Program-made: the position numbers and the translations under genes | Virus record (IMG/VR): IMGVR_UViG_3300020049_004016 | Length of the DNA: 20,000 nt | Direction: 5' to 3' (one strand) | DNA from: an uncultured virus (IMG/VR IMGVR_UViG_3300020049_004016) | Lineage: Duplodnaviria > Heunggongvirae > Uroviricota > Caudoviricetes | The notes under the pieces: model-generated | Database searches by the model: none | The model's input: the letters and a program-made list of their open reading frames with translations, nothing else | Told to the model about the DNA's origin: nothing | Shown: one piece after another, positions 15 to 14,312 of the stretch | How positions within the stretch are numbered: the stretch's first letter is position 1 | Layout: every line of letters starts with the position of its first letter

Positions 15-137
15 CTAATCAGTGGCAATTATTATCTGTGCTATCGCCCGCCAAATATGAGATACATTTACACCATCACACATATCGGCAATTTTTACAA
101 ACAACTCATTAACTTCATCACTATTATTTCTCATCAT
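15..137 (-). CDS. small hypothetical protein (40 aa, MMRNNSDEVNELF...)
   Basis: Manual translation; ATG preceded by ATAGGAG RBS within the end of the upstream gene; not in ORF track. Confidence 0.45.
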   Translation of the reverse strand: MMRNNSDEVNELFVKIADMCDGVNVSHIWRAIAQIIIATD

Positions 138-549
138 CTACTCCTATTCCGTGTAATTCTTCAGTTTTTCGCATCAAATAATATATTTGCCAAGGTCTCA
201 CATTAGAAAAATCAGCATCTTTTTTGATAATATCTACTTCTTTAGATAAAATAGAATCACTCAAAGGTTTACGGGTTGGAGGTGATGTGTAGAGTGGGGT
301 TATAATGTCTGGTCTTTTTAAGTTCTGGCTATCTTTAGCGTATTCTTCAGCATCACATAAAAGTTGAAACAGCTTAGCTGTATAGCCACCACCCTCATAC
401 TTTCTAGTCCACATCCAAGCTACAGGCTCATTAGATTGCTCAGGTTGGGCGAGAAGGGTTTGAGTATCTCTTAGTAACTTAATATCAGCATGTATCTTTC
501 CAAATTCGTCAAACCATCTTTCTAGCAATTTTCTTTCTTTACTCATCAT
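124..549 (-). CDS. MSKER/LAQPE-family modular phage protein
   Basis: Motifs MSKERKLL, LLAQPEQ, EPVAW, PLYTSPP, KPLSD, HGIGVDDE; shares motifs with five other ORFs in the window. Confidence 0.8.
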   Translation of the reverse strand: MMSKERKLLERWFDEFGKIHADIKLLRDTQTLLAQPEQSNEPVAWMWTRKYEGGGYTAKLFQLLCDAEEYAKDSQNLKRPDIITPLYTSPPTRKPLSDSILSKEVDIIKKDADFSNVRPWQIYYLMRKTEELHGIGVDDEK

Positions 550-4543: not shown

Positions 4544-4790
4544 GAGCGTCCTCCATTGAGTTGATAACGCGCACATCACAACCGAGTGCACGTCTACGTT
4601 CATGATCGAGTTCTTGTAACGGTGTCGCGTGTTTACCTTCGTTCTTCAGTTCAACGAATATGATCACTCCTCCAGGTAGTGTTACGATACGATCAGGTAC
4701 TGACCTTCGTCCGCTTATGAACTTTTCAGCCATACCACCCAATTCTTTAACTCGCTTGACGAGTGCTTGCTCAATGTGTCGTTCAAGCAT
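4527..4790 (-). CDS. VRR-NUC domain nuclease
   Basis: LERHIE..., VPDRIV, FVELK, LQ motifs; typical position between polymerase and SNF2 helicase. Confidence 0.9.
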   Translation of the reverse strand: MLERHIEQALVKRVKELGGMAEKFISGRRSVPDRIVTLPGGVIIFVELKNEGKHATPLQELDHERRRALGCDVRVINSMEDARAFKK

Positions 4791-5586
4791 TATATCCAAC
4801 CTCTTTTAATAATTCGTTAGCCATACTGATGTACACTGGGTAGTCCACATCTTGCGGGAAGATGTCTGGTAGATCCATTAACGGTCTTGCGCCACCTGAC
4901 ATCGGCACTCGGTTTGAATTCTTCGCGTAGTGTATGCAGATCTCTTTATCAACGTCACGCGAGTAGTAAAAGCGTACGGCTTTACCGAGGTAACCACCTT
5001 GCCATGTTGCACCGCCAGTCACCTTACGCACTGTGACGAACTGAGTTATGTCGTTACATTCCATGATGGTTTGCTCGATAGGGGTGTTGCGCGCCACGCA
5101 ATACGCAACCGCTTTCTGTACGATCGAACAGTTCGGGTTCTTAGCAAGACCTGTGGATGCGAAGATACCTTTGCCTTTGATCTTACCGTCGGTTTTAACA
5201 GCGATGTAGTTATTAACATCTCTCGATACGAGTTTTGAATACTCGGTAGTTTCTAACTGATAACCTGTATCTAGCTCCCAATCAAAAGCGACTTCCTCAC
5301 AAGCATCTAAAAGGGATAAGGGAGCATAGCAAACAATACCATCAGTGTTTGCAGATACTATTTGTATACCTTTATCCTCCATGCGTTCTATTAAAGACAA
5401 TAGCGCAAGCTGTCCGGTCAAGGTTGTTTGTAATAATAATTCTGGCGCATAGAGAACACTGTATTTTGATCCTAGCTTGCCGAACGAGCCATTGGTCGAG
5501 AGTTTTTTTGAATCTGATTCTGTTTTGTATTTTAGTAGTTCAGCTTTGGCTTCGGACAATCTATTTTTAATTTCTATTTTAGTCAT
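4783..5586 (-). CDS. DNA polymerase (family-B-type), C-terminal half
   Basis: Motif B KLSTNGSFGKLG, TLTGQL, motif C SANTDG, DVNNY, KGKG. Confidence 0.88.
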   Translation of the reverse strand: MTKIEIKNRLSEAKAELLKYKTESDSKKLSTNGSFGKLGSKYSVLYAPELLLQTTLTGQLALLSLIERMEDKGIQIVSANTDGIVCYAPLSLLDACEEVAFDWELDTGYQLETTEYSKLVSRDVNNYIAVKTDGKIKGKGIFASTGLAKNPNCSIVQKAVAYCVARNTPIEQTIMECNDITQFVTVRKVTGGATWQGGYLGKAVRFYYSRDVDKEICIHYAKNSNRVPMSGGARPLMDLPDIFPQDVDYPVYISMANELLKEVGYNA

Positions 5587-5587
5587 T

Positions 5588-6319
5588 TTATTTATCTCTC
5601 TTTTTCCAAATATAATTCATATATGTTGGTTTATATCCATTACAAACCGAATATATATTTTGCCATTTATACGTAGGATTTTCTAAAATTATATCGTCGA
5701 CAGAATCCCATGTTCTTATAAAAACATTTTCTCTAGTGAATTGATCAAATATATATTTCCTTTTAGCTATTTTAACTTTGGCTACCATATCTTTTCTTTT
5801 GTCAAAGTCAGACCATGTTTGTATTGAACTGATTGACATTTTGTTTCTCCATTCTTCACCATAAATAAGGCCTCCAGAATGTCTATCTTTTGCAATATCA
5901 GACATTTTTTGTTTTTGTTCGTCTGACCATCGATTACCATAGTTAGGGTTTTTCTCTCCCAAATTTGTCCCTTTCAATTCGTCACAATAATCTTTAGCCC
6001 ATTTTCCCCCCGATAAAGCATCTTGACGAATGTTATATCCAAATCCCCTATCTTTTGTATTATAGTGATCCATCCAATATGCTTCTCTATCTAATAAAAT
6101 AGATTTATCATAAGTTTCAAATGTTTCTATAATTTCAAATTTAAAAACATCTGCTCCGTAAATTCTTCCGTCAGCGTGGAGATGTTTGTTAAAATCTTTA
6201 TGTCTATTTTCTTTTTTTAAATTACATTTATGGCTATACCATCGAGATGTGGTATCTTTACACGCCCCGATGTATTTCTTATTATTAACAGTGTTTGTGA
6301 TTGAATAAATAGCGATCAT
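5588..6319 (-). CDS. GIY-YIG homing endonuclease with NUMOD3/NUMOD1-like DNA-binding modules
   Basis: AIY-x10-YIG, RWYSH, REAYW, GYN; GEKNPNYG..SDEQKQKMS; C-terminal IYSVCNG..YIWK; AT-rich. Confidence 0.9.
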   Translation of the reverse strand: MIAIYSITNTVNNKKYIGACKDTTSRWYSHKCNLKKENRHKDFNKHLHADGRIYGADVFKFEIIETFETYDKSILLDREAYWMDHYNTKDRGFGYNIRQDALSGGKWAKDYCDELKGTNLGEKNPNYGNRWSDEQKQKMSDIAKDRHSGGLIYGEEWRNKMSISSIQTWSDFDKRKDMVAKVKIAKRKYIFDQFTRENVFIRTWDSVDDIILENPTYKWQNIYSVCNGYKPTYMNYIWKKRDK

Positions 6320-6348
6320 GATGTTCTCCTAGTTGGGATAATACCATG

Positions 6349-7437
6349 CTACATGTTTTTTAATTCGTTTTCAAGATTATTTATTTCTTTAGTTAACTCA
6401 GCGATCTTTTTCTTTGCAAAGTTTCTTTTTTGAACAATATCTTTATATATTTTTAAGAAAGGTTTACCCATAGATTTTGGTGCTAATTTCTGCTGTAAGA
6501 TGATGCTTGGATAGTAGCCCAAACAATCTTTCTCTTTTAGGAACCATCCTTCTTTAACATTTATATACTGCGACTTCTCACATGAGTGTAGACCACCAAT
6601 ACCCATCTGATACTTACGACCGCCAATTCTAATGTCTTCTTTCTTTAACCAATCTGGTAGCACTAGCGCACCGTTGATACCTAACTTAAACGGTTCTTTG
6701 ATAACACGTGCCAAGATGTTGTTCAATTGCTCGCTCTTGAACGATACGATCTCAGGGTCTTGATAATAGAACTTCGCGTCATCAGCAACGGTAGGTCGTG
6801 AGGGTTTCTTACCGGTAATCTTTTGCAGTTCGCTGGAGATGACCGTCTCAGCAATCTGCGCATCAGACTTAGAGCGCAAATCCATACCGTACTGCTCAGT
6901 CATCGACTCGCGTAGCGTGATCTGAGGGATGAGTGCTTGATAGAGTTCTTGTGTGGTCTGTAAGTCGTTCTCACAATAGTTTCTTAGCTCAACCCGTTGC
7001 TCAGGTGAGATGAGTGCAGACGGTTCGATAGGTAGGTCTTGCAGTTTCTTTGAGTGCAGCCTTCCACCGTAGATCTTCAAGGAAGACATACCAGGTGCTA
7101 CTTCGATAAGATCAATATGATCCCATTTTGGGCAGGGTAGATTGTTATCTTGGTAAGTCCGATACGAGGATCGGTTTGATCCGATGATCGAGTCGCATAG
7201 ACTTTTTATGTGTTTGTTGTTCCATCCACAGAGTGCTGCCACGATAATGGGTAAGTCGAAGTTATTCCCGTTGAAGCTGATCGTGGTGTTCTTACGCATG
7301 ATATTGGACAGAACTGCTAGATCTAGCGGATGGTCTTCGTACAACTCAAGGTGGATAACTTTACCAGTCTCTACGCATTTGGCCGCGAAGAGAAAGTAGT
7401 TAGTGTAGATCTCTGTATCGATGATTATCTTTTTCAT
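6349..7437 (-). CDS. DNA polymerase (family-B-type), N-terminal half (3'-5' exonuclease and motif A)
   Basis: ExoI DTE, ExoII FNGNNFD, ExoIII YCEND, GIGGLHS, motif A DCLGYYPS; likely start MKKIII at 7437. Confidence 0.88.
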   Translation of the reverse strand: MKKIIIDTEIYTNYFLFAAKCVETGKVIHLELYEDHPLDLAVLSNIMRKNTTISFNGNNFDLPIIVAALCGWNNKHIKSLCDSIIGSNRSSYRTYQDNNLPCPKWDHIDLIEVAPGMSSLKIYGGRLHSKKLQDLPIEPSALISPEQRVELRNYCENDLQTTQELYQALIPQITLRESMTEQYGMDLRSKSDAQIAETVISSELQKITGKKPSRPTVADDAKFYYQDPEIVSFKSEQLNNILARVIKEPFKLGINGALVLPDWLKKEDIRIGGRKYQMGIGGLHSCEKSQYINVKEGWFLKEKDCLGYYPSIILQQKLAPKSMGKPFLKIYKDIVQKRNFAKKKIAELTKEINNLENELKNM

Positions 7438-7463
7438 TTTATGTTTCCTTGATAGGGTAGCTA

Positions 7464-7961
7464 TCAATTAATTGGTGCTGACGGGTGGTATATCTTTTTA
7501 GCATCTAAATATGCTTGATATGCTTCTTCTTTGGTATCAAAATATCCTAAATGTATGTTTTTATAATTTGCTTTTATTCTAGCTCTCCATTTTTTATTTT
7601 TCTTATTTACTCCTGGATATCCTGATGTGTTTATACTTTTTAATGTTTGATTATGACAATTCTCCATGTGTGTGACAAGTCGTAAATTGCATAATCTATT
7701 GTCAGACCTATTTCTATTTATATGATCTATCCTTAAGTGTTCTGGTATATCTCCATTTGAAATTATCCAAGCCAACCTATGAGACTTATATGGTTTTCTA
7801 TCAACCACTATGTATGGATACCCATAATGATCTAAAGGACCAAAAATAACTGTATCTTTTGTAGCGTTAGACCCAACCGTAATTAATCTTTTAAAACTAC
7901 CAACTTCAGGATCATATTCAAACAACTCTAACAATCTTTCTTGCGAAGGATGTGGGTTCAT
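7464..7961 (-). CDS. HNH endonuclease with AP2-like C-terminal domain
   Basis: HRLAW, IDHINRNRSDNRLCNLR, NTSGYPGV, WRARI, HLGYFDT; AT-rich. Confidence 0.92.
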   Translation of the reverse strand: MNPHPSQERLLELFEYDPEVGSFKRLITVGSNATKDTVIFGPLDHYGYPYIVVDRKPYKSHRLAWIISNGDIPEHLRIDHINRNRSDNRLCNLRLVTHMENCHNQTLKSINTSGYPGVNKKNKKWRARIKANYKNIHLGYFDTKEEAYQAYLDAKKIYHPSAPIN

Positions 7962-7972
7962 TTCTTTATCTC

Positions 7973-8080
7973 ATAAAAAAAGCTACACTCTCAATTCGCG
8001 GTAGGAATGGCTTGAAATTATGCCACGCGGTTTGAAAATATAGCTTTGTTTAAATTTCAATTTAAGGTTCCTACACCTGA
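7973..8080 (-). ncRNA. structured leader RNA copy 1 (c4/CI-like attenuator)
   Basis: 16-bp closing stem followed by U tract, internal TGGC/GCCA hairpin, two segments complementary to upstream sites; paralog at 9438-9545. Confidence 0.7.
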
Positions 8081-8085
8081 AACTA

Positions 8086-8094
8086 ATTATAACA
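8086..8094 (-). promoter_or_regulatory. extended -10 promoter (TGtTATAAT) for leader RNA/HNH
   Basis: TG-n-TATAAT directly upstream of the RNA element. Confidence 0.6.
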
Positions 8095-8105
8095 CGGTAA
8101 TGAGA

Positions 8106-8127
8106 AAGCCCCAACTTAATGGGGCTT
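8106..8127 (-). terminator. terminator-like hairpin after the SSB gene
   Basis: AAGCCCCA-ttaagt-TGGGGCTT just downstream of the stop codon. Confidence 0.65.
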
Positions 8128-8134
8128 AATTTAT

Positions 8135-8659
8135 TTAGAATACGTCGTCTTCGTCTGAATCGAATGCGTCGAAATCGTTTAGACTGCCTGAAGAACCATC
8201 TCCAAAAGGTTGACCATCCTTGAAGAACTGAATGCCTAATAGAGTAGCATTTATACGCTTACCCCACGCGTTATCTTGACTCCAGATCTCGATACTCGCA
8301 TTGACATAACAACCTGAGTAAGGCTTACCATCATCTTCGGCCAGTGGAGACTTGTCTCTGTCGATAACCAGTGGACGTTTTTTAGAGCTGGCTTTTAAAC
8401 TGAAGTGATTAGCGTAACCATCATAGTCAACCAAATCACCGTCACGTAAGCACAACTTTTCAGGGCCAACTTTAGCACCCTTAAGATTGGTCTTGATCAG
8501 TTCTTTGATCTGAGCTTGGATTGATTCGATCTGATCCGCTTGCGTTTCTTTGTCAAGCAGGAAAGTACCTTCGAACCCAGTTTCTTCACCGCTGAATACA
8601 GCTTTCTTGAATAATGAAGGGAAAGACAGACGTACGTTTTTTAAGATTATTTTAGCCAT
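8135..8659 (-). CDS. DUF2815-family single-stranded DNA-binding protein
   Basis: NVRLSFPSLF, LRDGD, YSGCYVNAS, IQFFKDG.PFG, acidic C-terminal tail ending in F. Confidence 0.9.
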   Translation of the reverse strand: MAKIILKNVRLSFPSLFKKAVFSGEETGFEGTFLLDKETQADQIESIQAQIKELIKTNLKGAKVGPEKLCLRDGDLVDYDGYANHFSLKASSKKRPLVIDRDKSPLAEDDGKPYSGCYVNASIEIWSQDNAWGKRINATLLGIQFFKDGQPFGDGSSGSLNDFDAFDSDEDDVF

Positions 8660-8705
8660 TGTTATTTTTCCTTTTAGGATTGAGTTTTAAGTTTTATTTT
8701 TACAG

Positions 8706-8752
8706 CGTGTTAAGTATAACTTAACTTTTATTCGGATGTCAAATTTTATTTT
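8706..8752 (-). promoter_or_regulatory. sigma70 promoter with UP element and palindromic operator
   Basis: AAAATAAAATTTGACA-18 bp-TATACT; GTTAA-N7-TTAAC at 8709-8725. Confidence 0.75.
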
Positions 8753-9425
8753 CTAATCTTGCCCAACTAACCGACTGAGCATATTCTGTTACTTTTTGTT
8801 TTGCGAACACATATATCTCTTTATAGTGCATGTTTTCATTCATACCTTTTCGTATCGCTGTGGAAGCTATGTTCTCAGCGACTTGTAAAAATCCTATCTG
8901 CATAAGATCTAGTGTATCTCTAAAATTACCAGAAGAACTTTTACTTTGTTCCAACATATCTAAAGCTTTATATTCCATCTTTGTTAAATTAGCATAATAC
9001 ATTTTTGCATTCACACTAGATTGATCGGTTGCATACTCTACAAAATCTTGGATAGTATCTGTCGTTTCTTTTCTAACAGCTTTGCCTTGAAGTCTTGCCG
9101 CTTTCCAATCTAGATTTGAACGTGTTTTTAATAACTCAGACTCCATCATATTGAAAGCTTCAAGAAACTTCTCTTTCCAAACCATTGCTTTCTTACCAGT
9201 AAAACCCATAACTAACATTGAGAAACCATTTCTAGTTATTACGTATTCTTGATAAGTCCTACCTTTATCATCTTGATAATCAATTTGCTCAAAATTGAGC
9301 CGATTAAATTCACTACTAGATTCTAAATTTTCTATTGCTCTGATAACATTCTTGTGAGCTTTGCCAAAATACTCAGCGATTATCCTAGAAGTGGTTGTCA
9401 TTTCTTTAGTAACTAACTCATTCAT
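8739..9425 (-). CDS. rha: Rha-family phage regulatory protein
   Basis: TTSRIIAEYFGKAHKNVIRAIE, FNRLNF, ITRNGFSMLVMGFTGKKA..WK..F.EAFN.ME. Confidence 0.92.
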   Translation of the reverse strand: MNELVTKEMTTTSRIIAEYFGKAHKNVIRAIENLESSSEFNRLNFEQIDYQDDKGRTYQEYVITRNGFSMLVMGFTGKKAMVWKEKFLEAFNMMESELLKTRSNLDWKAARLQGKAVRKETTDTIQDFVEYATDQSSVNAKMYYANLTKMEYKALDMLEQSKSSSGNFRDTLDLMQIGFLQVAENIASTAIRKGMNENMHYKEIYVFAKQKVTEYAQSVSWARLENKI

Positions 9426-9437
9426 TTTATTACTCGC

Positions 9438-9545
9438 ATAAAAAAAGCTGATCTCAATTGCCGGGTAGTAATGGCTCAGAAGTTTGCCACCGACATTTAG
9501 AGATACAGCTTTGTTTAACTACTGATTTAACGGTTACTACACCGA
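9438..9545 (-). ncRNA. structured leader RNA copy 2 (c4/CI-like attenuator)
   Basis: Same architecture as 7973-8080 with compensatory substitutions. Confidence 0.7.
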
Positions 9546-9592
9546 GGCTTAATAATAACCTCGGTTTGAAACATTTGTCAAATTTTATTTTT
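9541..9592 (-). promoter_or_regulatory. sigma70 promoter for leader RNA/rha
   Basis: AAAATAAAATTTGACA-18 bp-TATTAT; -10 enclosed by inverted repeat ACCGAGG/CCTCGGT. Confidence 0.65.
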
Positions 9593-9832
9593 CTCCTCGC
9601 ATTCTTGTAAAAACTTTTGAAATGCTTCGATAGCATCCCAATAACCATCTTGAGTCAAACTGCCTTGTTGTCTCAATTTTGCGTGCAATTCCATTTTCTC
9701 TGTATTACTCAAAAACCCACGTTCAGGCTGTGCAAGAAACTCTTGAATATCAATTTTTAGTTCTGGACACACTAGATTATGATATTGCATCTCATCTAAG
9801 CAGCTTTCTAACAAATCCCGTTCTTTAGACAT
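9578..9832 (-). CDS. MSKER/LAQPE-family modular phage protein
   Basis: MSKERDLL, FLAQPE. Confidence 0.75.
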   Translation of the reverse strand: MSKERDLLESCLDEMQYHNLVCPELKIDIQEFLAQPERGFLSNTEKMELHAKLRQQGSLTQDGYWDAIEAFQKFLQECEEKNKI

Positions 9833-9841
9833 TATAATTCC

Positions 9842-9910
9842 TTAACAAAACCAAAGCACAATAGCTACAAACACTAAAGACGTATATAGTATATTTTCAC
9901 TACTCATCAT
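9842..9910 (-). CDS. 22-aa hydrophobic peptide (MMSSENILYTSLVFVAIVLWFC)
   Basis: Starts within the conserved ATAGGGGTAGATGATGAG junction; stop abuts the next RBS. Confidence 0.45.
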   Translation of the reverse strand: MMSSENILYTSLVFVAIVLWFC

Positions 9911-10148
9911 CTACCCCTATATCGTGTGCCATTTCAATAGCTCTCCCTAGAATTGTTGGGTAACCACTATAATAATTTGTTAAATCCTCAAGGCGTTCAT
10001 TGCTCAAAGGCTGAAGTTTCTTTTCAGGTTGGGCGAGTAGCTCTATGGCTCTACCAATTAGAACATCAGCGTTACGCTGTAGACCGCCCATGCTCGTGCA
10101 TTCTAATAAGATTTTCATATCCTTTATTAACTCTCTTTCTTTAGACAT
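9900..10148 (-). CDS. MSKER/LAQPE-family modular phage protein
   Basis: MSKERELI, LLAQPE, QPLSNE, RAIEMAHDIGVDDE. Confidence 0.8.
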   Translation of the reverse strand: MSKERELIKDMKILLECTSMGGLQRNADVLIGRAIELLAQPEKKLQPLSNERLEDLTNYYSGYPTILGRAIEMAHDIGVDDE

Positions 10149-12888: not shown

Positions 12889-13212
12889 TTATTCTCCTAT
12901 ACCGTAATACTTATCTGCAAACCGAACACCATCTCTAAAAGCAAGATCATGATAATTTTTATCTGAACTTTGATATCCTAAATCGATTTCATCATCACTC
13001 AAAGGCTCACGTTTTAATTTAAGTTTTGCTTCTGCATAACCTCTTTGATATGCTTCTTGATTCCAATATGAGTCAAGCGCATGCCGTGTTGGCTCTTGCT
13101 CAGGCTGGGCGAGTAGCCTTCTTATTTTTCCATGATTAATACTTCCAATATCAAACCGATCATCTTCATGTTGGTCTAGTATGTTTTGCAACAACTCTCT
13201 TTCTTTACTCAT
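12889..13212 (-). CDS. MSKER/LAQPE-family modular phage protein
   Basis: True start likely 13212 (GGAGG..TGATG); MSKERELL, LLAQPEQEP, REPLSDDEI, YGIGE. Confidence 0.8.
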   Translation of the reverse strand: MSKERELLQNILDQHEDDRFDIGSINHGKIRRLLAQPEQEPTRHALDSYWNQEAYQRGYAEAKLKLKREPLSDDEIDLGYQSSDKNYHDLAFRDGVRFADKYYGIGE

Positions 13213-13538
13213 CACCACCTCCAAGTTATACCGTGAGCTTTTTCTACTCTTCTTATCCATCTGATGACGTATCTGACTTGATGATCGTCCATATTTTCAA
13301 CAATCCCTTCTTTATCAAGAGCATATATAGCATCTTCTGATAAGGGTTTGGGTAGTGCAAACTCATTGACCCCTTGTCTAAACCCTTTCCCATACCATTC
13401 AATCTTTGTTTCTGCTAAAAGAGGCTCAGGTTCAGGTTGGGCGAGGAGTTCTTTAGTTTCTTCAAGTAGGCTCATATTAGAACCACGCCACATACACTCA
13501 ACTAACCACTTCTTAAGTAACTCTCTTTCTTTACTCAT
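13212..13538 (-). CDS. MSKER/LAQPE-family modular phage protein
   Basis: MSKERELL, LLAQPEPEP, KPLSED, VEKAHGI. Confidence 0.8.
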   Translation of the reverse strand: MSKERELLKKWLVECMWRGSNMSLLEETKELLAQPEPEPLLAETKIEWYGKGFRQGVNEFALPKPLSEDAIYALDKEGIVENMDDHQVRYVIRWIRRVEKAHGITWRW

Positions 13539-13901: not shown

Positions 13902-14312
13902 TTATAGTGCGCTTAAGCGCTCTTTAAGTTCCTCAAGATGTACATCCGCGACTTTGGCGAGGTGTGTAGCACCGTTGTACTCACTGATGATTTTTACAAT
14001 GTGAGGCTTTAATGTACGGTCTTTTACGATCTTGGACGAGCAGATCTCTTGCAACTCAACACGAAGCTGCGCAGGGTCGTTGACTTCCTTCTTCAAGTCT
14101 GCCACTGTTAAAGGCTCGCATGTTGGAGCGGGTTGCTCGACTTCGATCTTTGCCTTCGCTTTCTTAGGCTCAGGTTGAGCGGTTTGTTTCAACGATTCTT
14201 CAACTTGCGACAGATCGGGTCTCACCCCGTTGCTGTAGTTGAGCAGAGTGATCGCCAAGGTGAGTTGACCGATGCTTTCGTTTAGGGTTTTAATGCTTTC
14301 TTCTAGTGACAT
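13902..14312 (-). CDS. hypothetical phage protein
   Basis: ORF track 136 aa; AAGGA RBS downstream of a promoter. Confidence 0.75.
   Translation of the reverse strand: MSLEESIKTLNESIGQLTLAITLLNYSNGVRPDLSQVEESLKQTAQPEPKKAKAKIEVEQPAPTCEPLTVADLKKEVNDPAQLRVELQEICSSKIVKDRTLKPHIVKIISEYNGATHLAKVADVHLEELKERLSAL

What the first reader, a model, noticed from the sequence alone, without database searches (positions are those of the whole stretch)
7973..9545. Two paralogous structured leader RNAs with covarying long-range pairings upstream of the HNH and rha genes
Seen: 7973-8080 and 9438-9545 (minus strand) share one layout between a promoter and two unrelated genes. The layout is a small hairpin GGT-GTAGGA-ACC / CGGT-GTAGTA-ACCG, a TTAA..TTAA hairpin, then a long stem (AAAGCTATATTTTCAA/TTGAGAGTGTAGCTTT vs AAAGCTGTATCTCTAA/TTGAGATCAGCTTT) ending in a U tract. 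The stem encloses CGCG/CGCG vs TGTCGG/CCGGCA and a TGGC-N10-GCCA hairpin. The junction segment is complementary to the first upstream site in each copy (TTCCTAC:GTAGGAA vs TTACTAC:GTAGTAA, a compensatory change). The loop is complementary to the second upstream site (AATTTCAA:TTGAAATT vs AACTTCTGA:TCAGTAGTT, one mismatch). Established: P1/P7 c4 RNA and P4 CI RNA use two short single-stranded segments pairing to targets in their own leader to control downstream genes. Inference: these are two specificity variants of an RNA attenuation/immunity switch, one controlling a homing-type nuclease gene.
Basis: partly seen in the sequence, partly recalled or inferred. Interest (0 to 1): 0.85.

Follow-up and report, generated by a model that had tools for sequence, protein, structure and literature searches.

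The report
Compact C4-like phage RNA attenuator
This phage carries two versions of a roughly 105-base leader RNA whose stop-signal hairpin matches two short "address" sequences at its own start; related phages keep the match with many different addresses, so it is probably a stripped-down, uncatalogued cousin of the phage C4 immunity RNA that throttles the gene behind it.

Summary
Real. Both copies (9545-9440 before rha, 8079-7975 before an HNH gene, minus strand) are ~105-nt promoter-proximal leaders: small hairpin with site a1 in its loop, site b1, then a 21-27-bp rod with a b' loop and 7-nt a' bulge, ending in 7 U. I found 24 distinct members in uncultured phages; 33 of 37 pairs show compensatory change, including 6/6 a1:a' and 5/5 b1:b' pairs; 8 divergent held-out members keep their own match (1 of 40,320 permutations). 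No Rfam hit. The anatomy is that of P1/P4/N15 C4/CI (same a1-b1 spacing; copy B's a1/a' equals PY54's and phiKO2's), but without the P2 hairpin, a2/b2 targets or icd, and with the antisense rod serving as the terminator 4-5 nt behind b1. Best model (inferred, 0.55): cis a/b pairing favours read-through; terminated RNA pairs in trans with matching nascent leaders and favours termination. Downstream genes vary (10 antirepressor-like, 7 nuclease-like, RecT, methylases). The scan noted similar architectures before on other DNA (e.g. e1-5765255). New variant of a known kind.

The parts
9552..9581 (-). Promoter A (TTGACA-18-TATTAT); -10 box 7 nt before the first hairpin
   Evidence: 11 of 12 matches
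9531..9544 (-). Copy A hairpin H1; a1 site GTAGTAA at 9540-9534 in its loop
9517..9525 (-). Copy A b1 site, single-stranded, one mismatch to b'
9444..9512 (-). Copy A rod (P1-P2-P3); b' loop 9485-9476, a' bulge 9471-9465
9440..9446 (-). Copy A U7 tract (predicted intrinsic terminator end); ATG 14 nt later
8739..9425 (-). rha-family gene, 228 aa (PF09669)
8086..8114 (-). Promoter B (weak -35 TTGGGG, 17 nt, TG-extended TATAAT); overlaps the hairpin 8106-8127 after the SSB gene
8065..8078 (-). Copy B hairpin H1; a1 site GTAGGAA at 8074-8068
8053..8060 (-). Copy B b1 site TTGAAATT
7979..8047 (-). Copy B rod (P1-P2-P3); b' loop 8021-8012, a' bulge 8007-8001
7975..7981 (-). Copy B U7 tract; ATG 13 nt later
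7464..7961 (-). HNH_3/AP2 endonuclease gene, 165 aa, abutting the DNA polymerase gene

Best explanation
A compact, self-addressed transcription attenuator of the C4/CI kind, carried as a promoter-RNA-gene cassette. Transcription starts at hairpin H1. As b' and then a' emerge they pair in cis with b1 and a1, which delays P3/P2 and hence the terminator rod, so a naive cell gets read-through into the downstream gene. Transcripts that do fold the rod stop at U7 and give a ~105-nt RNA in which a' and b' sit at the far end of a 21-27-bp rod and cannot reach their own a1/b1 (linker 4-5 nt). This RNA pairs in trans with a1/b1 of new transcripts of the same address, frees P3/P2/P1 and favours termination. 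The result is a burst followed by self-silencing that also silences co-infecting phages with the same address; copies A and B are orthogonal. Shown: structure, covariation, address diversity, cassette mobility, absence of a2/b2. Inferred: start site, termination, direction of the switch, trans action.
For: Covariation in 23 sequences: 33 of 37 pairs with changes on both sides, 96.3% of cells paired, 0 of 500 shuffles; a1:a' 6 of 6 and b1:b' 5 of 5 pairs compensatory (15-sequence MAFFT set). Held-out 8 divergent members: cognate assignment best of 40,320 permutations; a ninth, L637, also matches. 12 bulge sequences and 19 a'/b' combinations in 23. Window copy A and its near relative L270 differ at 7 of 108 RNA positions, 6 of them in a1, b1, b' or a'. 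Both genomes with two copies use different addresses (window; G012). Nascent prefixes ending after P2 form P2/P3 (mean pair probability >0.5) in 3 of 23 when free and 20 of 23 when the a1/b1 stretch is blocked; full-length folds give the rod with no a/b pairs in 23 of 23. Every member has 7-8 U at the stem end. A -10-like hexamer lies 6-8 nt before H1 in 21 of 23. P4 CI RNA causes termination by pairing with seqA/seqC (PMC4825925, section 21). Cassettes sit inside apparent operons (before DNA polymerase here; between portal and capsid genes in G003), which fits read-through as the default (inference).
Against: No transcript data. Only ~35 nt separate b1 from b' (58-142 nt separate b1 from the C4 stem in 4 canonical loci), so trans pairing must win a short race unless polymerase pauses. 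The folding programs cannot model pseudoknots or kinetics; the outer P1 pairs might still form beside a/b helices, and the rod is more stable (-24.6 to -41.3 kcal/mol) than the a/b fold. The terminated RNA also carries a1/b1, which could bind nascent a'/b' and push the other way; IsrK acts in trans to activate (PMC4825925). Copy A has a mismatch in b1:b'. U tract and ACAAAG were part of my search patterns, so their conservation is partly built in. No sign of lysogeny genes in G002 or G004, so the selective reason for address change is open.
Confidence: 0.55

Rival explanations
1. Cis-only attenuator: a1:a' and b1:b' compete with the terminator during transcription and set a fixed or elongation-rate-dependent read-through; addresses drift neutrally by compensatory change.
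For: The only a1+b1 site in the window, G002, G003 and G004 is the leader's own; no a2/b2; short b1-b' distance; co-transcriptional folds show the switch without any partner.
Against: Changes concentrate in the address segments (6 of 7 between copy A and L270); same-genome copies differ; homologous layout acts in trans in P1 and P4 (PMC5320573, PMC4825925).
Confidence: 0.22
2. Trans activation: the terminator is the default, and the 5' a1/b1 part of accumulated short RNA binds a'/b' of nascent transcripts to block it, giving delayed or copy-number-dependent expression, as IsrK activates its own operon.
For: Rod is the most stable full-length fold in 23 of 23; IsrK, the a1/b1-bearing RNA of Gifsy-1, activates in trans (PMC4825925); late expression would suit homing nucleases (own knowledge).
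Against: Nascent a'/b' are captured in cis first in most prefixes; cassettes upstream of essential genes would be polar by default.
Confidence: 0.12
3. A small RNA aimed mainly at other transcripts (host or competing phage), or a protein-binding fold, with the downstream gene incidental.
For: C4-like RNAs in Acinetobacter were proposed to target other RNAs (PMC5320573); host genome unknown, so host targets could not be tested.
Against: a' and b' track their own a1/b1 in every member; a start codon lies 11-15 nt behind the U tract in 19 of 23.
Confidence: 0.08
4. Chance similarity or a DNA-level repeat without RNA function.
For: 7-8-nt matches are short; first members were chosen by patterns.
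Against: G-U pairs are used in P1 and b1:b', as expected for RNA.
Confidence: 0.02

Closest known systems
C4 antisense RNA of P1/P7, CI RNA of P4, and the matching loci of N15, phiKO2, PY54 (Rfam RF01695) with c4-a1b1 targets (RF03163)
   Same: 7-8-nt a' bulge directly 3' of a hairpin whose loop holds b', both on a long closing stem; a1 in the loop of a small GG..CC hairpin; b1 6-9 nt later (7, 9, 8 in P1, P4, N15); nested order a1-b1-b'-a'; copy B's GTAGGAA/TTCCTAC is the address of PY54 and phiKO2; antirepressor-type genes downstream in 10 of 24 members.
   Different: No P2 tetraloop hairpin; no first hairpin before a1; b1 lies 4-5 nt (not 58-142 nt) before the stem; stem ends in U7 instead of a CCAC/CCAUC-like tail; no a2/b2 (0 of 23 against a2 within 11 nt in 5 of 5 canonical loci); no icd-like ORF; AU-rich; neither Rfam models nor my models cross-hit.
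IsrK / P4 SeqA leader RNA (Rfam RF01394)
   Same: Promoter-proximal short RNA bearing a1 and b1 and ending in an intrinsic terminator; acts on its own operon (PMC4825925).
   Different: There the terminator is a separate small hairpin and the antisense RNA lies downstream; here terminator and antisense rod are one structure.
c4-2 motif (Rfam RF02944; Weinberg 2017, PMC5737381)
   Same: Described as a likely distant homolog of a known RNA (passage).
   Different: In Rfam 15 but gave no hit here. Its description is in a supplement I could not read, so an architectural likeness is not excluded.

Membership tests
C4/CI antisense RNA (RF01695, clan CL00128) | Score above Rfam gathering threshold for C4, c4-2, c4-a1b1 or isrK | tested here: not met
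   No such family listed up to E 10 for the window or either copy or up to E 1 for 14 homolog loci; positive control 5 of 5 canonical loci hit C4
C4/CI antisense RNA | Three-stem fold with P2 tetraloop hairpin | tested here: not met
   Single rod with one hairpin loop in all members
C4/CI antisense RNA | a' 7-nt bulge 3' of the hairpin carrying b' | tested here: met
C4/CI antisense RNA | Upstream a1 (hairpin loop) and b1 targets in its own leader, 6-9 nt apart | tested here: met
   a1:a' 6-7 bp in 23 of 23; spacer 6-9 nt in 22 of 23
C4/CI antisense RNA | Downstream a2/b2 (seqC) targets before the controlled gene | tested here: not met
   Best a2 match within up to 400 nt is 6 or less in 23 of 23; cognate no better than non-cognate (3.5 vs 3.6); control 5 of 5
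C4/CI antisense RNA | Small icd/kil ORF translationally coupled to the antirepressor | tested here: not met
   Main gene starts 11-15 nt after the U tract in 19 of 23
C4/CI antisense RNA | Maturation by RNase P at a GGW start | not testable with these tools
   The GGW start described in PMC5320573 is absent (stem starts AAAG/AAAT); processing itself needs RNA data
C4/CI antisense RNA | Acts in trans to repress or terminate, with address-specific (hetero-immune) variants | not testable with these tools
   Address variants shown by sequence; action not tested
C4/CI antisense RNA | Guards an antirepressor in a temperate phage | tested here: inconclusive
   Rha, BRO-N/KilAC or AntA follows in 10 of 24; no tyrosine integrase or CI repressor in 82 G002 and 54 G004 ORFs scanned

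The most novel reading that the evidence does not exclude
A mobile family of minimal, processing-free RNA off-switches: one 105-nt transcript is target, terminator and trans-acting effector at once, exists in dozens of orthogonal addresses, and is bolted in front of nucleases, antirepressors, recombinases and methylases in phages with no evident lysogeny, giving per-gene burst-and-silence control and address-specific silencing of co-infecting kin. It would be the simplified (or ancestral) form of C4/CI immunity.
Probability: 0.35. Interest if true: 0.8.

Novelty: new variant of a known kind. Interest (0 to 1): 0.62.

Why it matters
It shows the C4/CI lock-and-key logic in an uncatalogued form half the size, decoupled from lysogeny genes and reused for unrelated cargo. 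Two orthogonal copies in one genome make the open question of how a1/b1 (seqA) pairing steers termination directly testable with short constructs, and the natural address series is a ready set of orthogonal RNA-controlled terminators. Copy B may gate the polymerase-helicase genes behind it.

Tried and rejected
Rfam membership: none. Second hairpin around b1: not supported. My first idea that target order is inverted relative to C4 was wrong; P1 has the same order. a2/b2 targets: absent. Second a1+b1 sites elsewhere in 4 genomes: none; weak G-U-rich matches only. Link to one gene family: the 5 closest Rha relatives (76-81%) and all 24 Rha and 27 HNH relative loci lack the RNA. Cellular genomes: 56 pattern loci gave no model hit; not found in 5 plus 151 genomes searched, the latter a sample of one class with only 25 candidates scored per genome. 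Cultured phages and plasmids: no real blastn match. Expression: no RNA holder listed. Whole assembly not held; nearest record G001 has no copy and does not cover this region. Host not identified; nearest cultured replication proteins are from Pseudoalteromonas, Vibrio and Acinetobacter phages at under 60%. Weak model hits that are plain terminators (L392, L395, L595) or unstructured (L391, L409, L414, L417, L418) were dropped. Literature searches found no description of this form; most classic P1/P4/N15 papers are not in the library.

Full report
Context. The window is the replication region of an uncultured tailed phage: DUF2800 nuclease, Enc34-type SSB, split DNA polymerase, SNF2 helicase, primase, Cro-like gene. 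No whole assembly is held. The two elements lie on the minus strand in front of a Rha gene (8739-9425) and an HNH/AP2 gene (7464-7961).

Observation. Both leaders fold as a small hairpin (H1), an open stretch, and a rod with a 10-nt loop and a 7-nt bulge ending in U7; z-scores -4.18 and -5.18, 0 of 200 shuffles. The claimed second hairpin is not predicted or conserved. Rfam gives nothing relevant for the window, either copy, or 14 homolog loci, whereas the same search finds C4 in 5 of 5 control loci from P1, P4, N15, phiKO2 and PY54.

Homologs. This gave 23 distinct members (pairwise identity 47-99%) and a 24th from a whole-record search. All are in viral or metagenome contigs; none of 56 cellular-genome pattern loci scored. 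On the 15-member MAFFT alignment the two long-range helices were the two longest conserved antidiagonals, 98.2% paired with 8 of 15 pairs compensatory. On the 23-member model-fitted alignment 33 of 37 pairs are compensatory, including all 6 a1:a' and all 5 b1:b' pairs counted, against at most 13 pairs in slid controls; that alignment leans towards the nested stems but has no term for the long-range pairs. Eight divergent members found after the model was built, by patterns that did not contain the bulge or loop, each match their own leader; the cognate assignment is the best of 40,320. Five of 23 have only 5 Watson-Crick b pairs extended to 8-9 by G-U; copy A and L463 have a mismatch.

Relation to C4. 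The P1 record places a1 in a hairpin loop, b1 7 nt later, then C4 with b' in a loop and a' in a 7-nt bulge, then a2/b2 before icd. The element has the same order and spacing, and copy B's a1/a' is the one used by PY54 and phiKO2. It lacks the P2 hairpin, a2/b2 (0 of 23 with a 7-nt match in up to 400 nt; control 5 of 5 within 11 nt) and an icd-like ORF; b1 lies 4-5 nt before the stem in 19 of 23 (the other 4 reflect mismatches or an alternative register) instead of 58-142 nt; the stem ends in U7. My models do not hit the canonical loci. So it works like C4/CI but fails membership.

Cassette behaviour. Genes behind the 24 members: Rha 8, BRO-N/KilAC 1, AntA 1, HNH 5, GIY-YIG 1, endonuclease VII-like 1, RecT 1, ParB-methylase 1, MT-A70 1, no family or short ORF 4. 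A relative 83% identical over 6475-8699 (L258) has cassette B but another gene where cassette A lies; another (L270) has leader A with a switched address and a barely alignable Rha gene, and lacks cassette B. The five closest Rha relatives lack the RNA. A second genome with two copies also uses two addresses. No second a1+b1 site exists in the window, G002, G003 or G004.

Mechanism. Equilibrium folds of nascent prefixes put b1:b' first and a1:a' next in most members, and the rod only at full length. Blocking the a1/b1 stretch raises P2/P3 formation from 3 of 23 to 20 of 23. A 4-5-nt linker cannot span a 21-27-bp rod (inference from helix geometry), so the terminated RNA should expose a'/b' without the RNase P step that C4 needs (C4 processing as described in PMC5320573). 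With P4 CI as precedent for RNA-induced termination (PMC4825925), I favour read-through by default and address-specific shut-off in trans (0.55). The short window for trans pairing, the lack of RNA data (no holder listed) and the IsrK precedent for activation keep cis-only (0.22) and activating (0.12) rivals alive. G002 (complete) showed a small serine resolvase but no tyrosine integrase or CI repressor among 82 of 90 listed ORFs of 95-1500 aa, G004 none among 54 of 60; shorter ORFs and those crossing region borders were not scanned. Lysogenic immunity is therefore not established.

Papers seen. PMC2864571: passages, supplement search and two parts of supplement 5. PMC5320573, PMC5737381, PMC8546580, PMC11701678, PMC13551039: passages; the supplement of PMC5737381, which describes c4-2, could not be read. 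PMC4825925: passage and section 21. Nine searches found no description of this form. The a/b, seqA/seqC names come from those sources; the Aeh1 comparison below is recalled.

Earlier scan notes. No look-alike by sequence or place. By words, several unchecked notes describe kissing-loop terminator leaders on other phages, one with loop and bulge pairing to two boxes before HNH genes. They agree in architecture, were read after my reading was formed, and are not independent support; they suggest this design is widespread.

Verdict. A real, uncatalogued RNA family; new variant of the C4/CI kind; interest 0.62.

Noticed in passing
window 4783-7467 (-): DNA polymerase is split in two ORFs (PHROG 1252 positions 49-397 and 388-654) by a free-standing GIY-YIG gene (5588-6319); no Rfam intron hit; the halves end and begin with helical, charged extensions that could rejoin them, recalling the mobE-split nrdA of phage Aeh1 (recalled).
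   Followed up: partly
window 9591-9576 and 8752-8737 (-): A 16-bp direct repeat (A-rich tract plus -35 box) flanks cassette A, shared by promoter A and the SSB promoter; a possible recombination point for gain or loss of the cassette (L258 lacks it).
   Followed up: partly
L646 1501-1590 (G018 13993-14082, +): Weak model hit (20.8-24.7 bits): terminator whose 7-nt tip loop is complementary to a 7-nt stretch at the leader start; may be a single-kiss form of the same design.
   Followed up: partly
window 124-549, 9578-9832, 9900-10148, 12889-13260, 13212-13538 (-): Several small ORFs share an N-terminus of the MSKERELL type and an LAQPE motif, suggesting modular shuffling.
   Followed up: no
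L333-L337, ~80 nt before the Rha start: The closest Rha relatives have a different short conserved leader with repeated TATGA(T) boxes next to the promoter, perhaps an operator.
   Followed up: no
G002 20417-20523 and G003 48284-48390: Same address and same site between portal and capsid genes, but BRO-N/KilAC cargo in one and Rha in the other.
   Followed up: partly
L005, L006, L008: Here the RNA follows an HNH-looking gene (judged by eye) and precedes only short ORFs.
   Followed up: no
window 7650-7678 (-): Promoter-like site (10 of 12, TG) inside the HNH gene ahead of the polymerase; the scan found no more sites than shuffles give (12 vs 13.5).
   Followed up: no
L634 7066-12382: G004 encodes three RCC1-repeat proteins and a sulfotransferase-like protein.
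   Followed up: no
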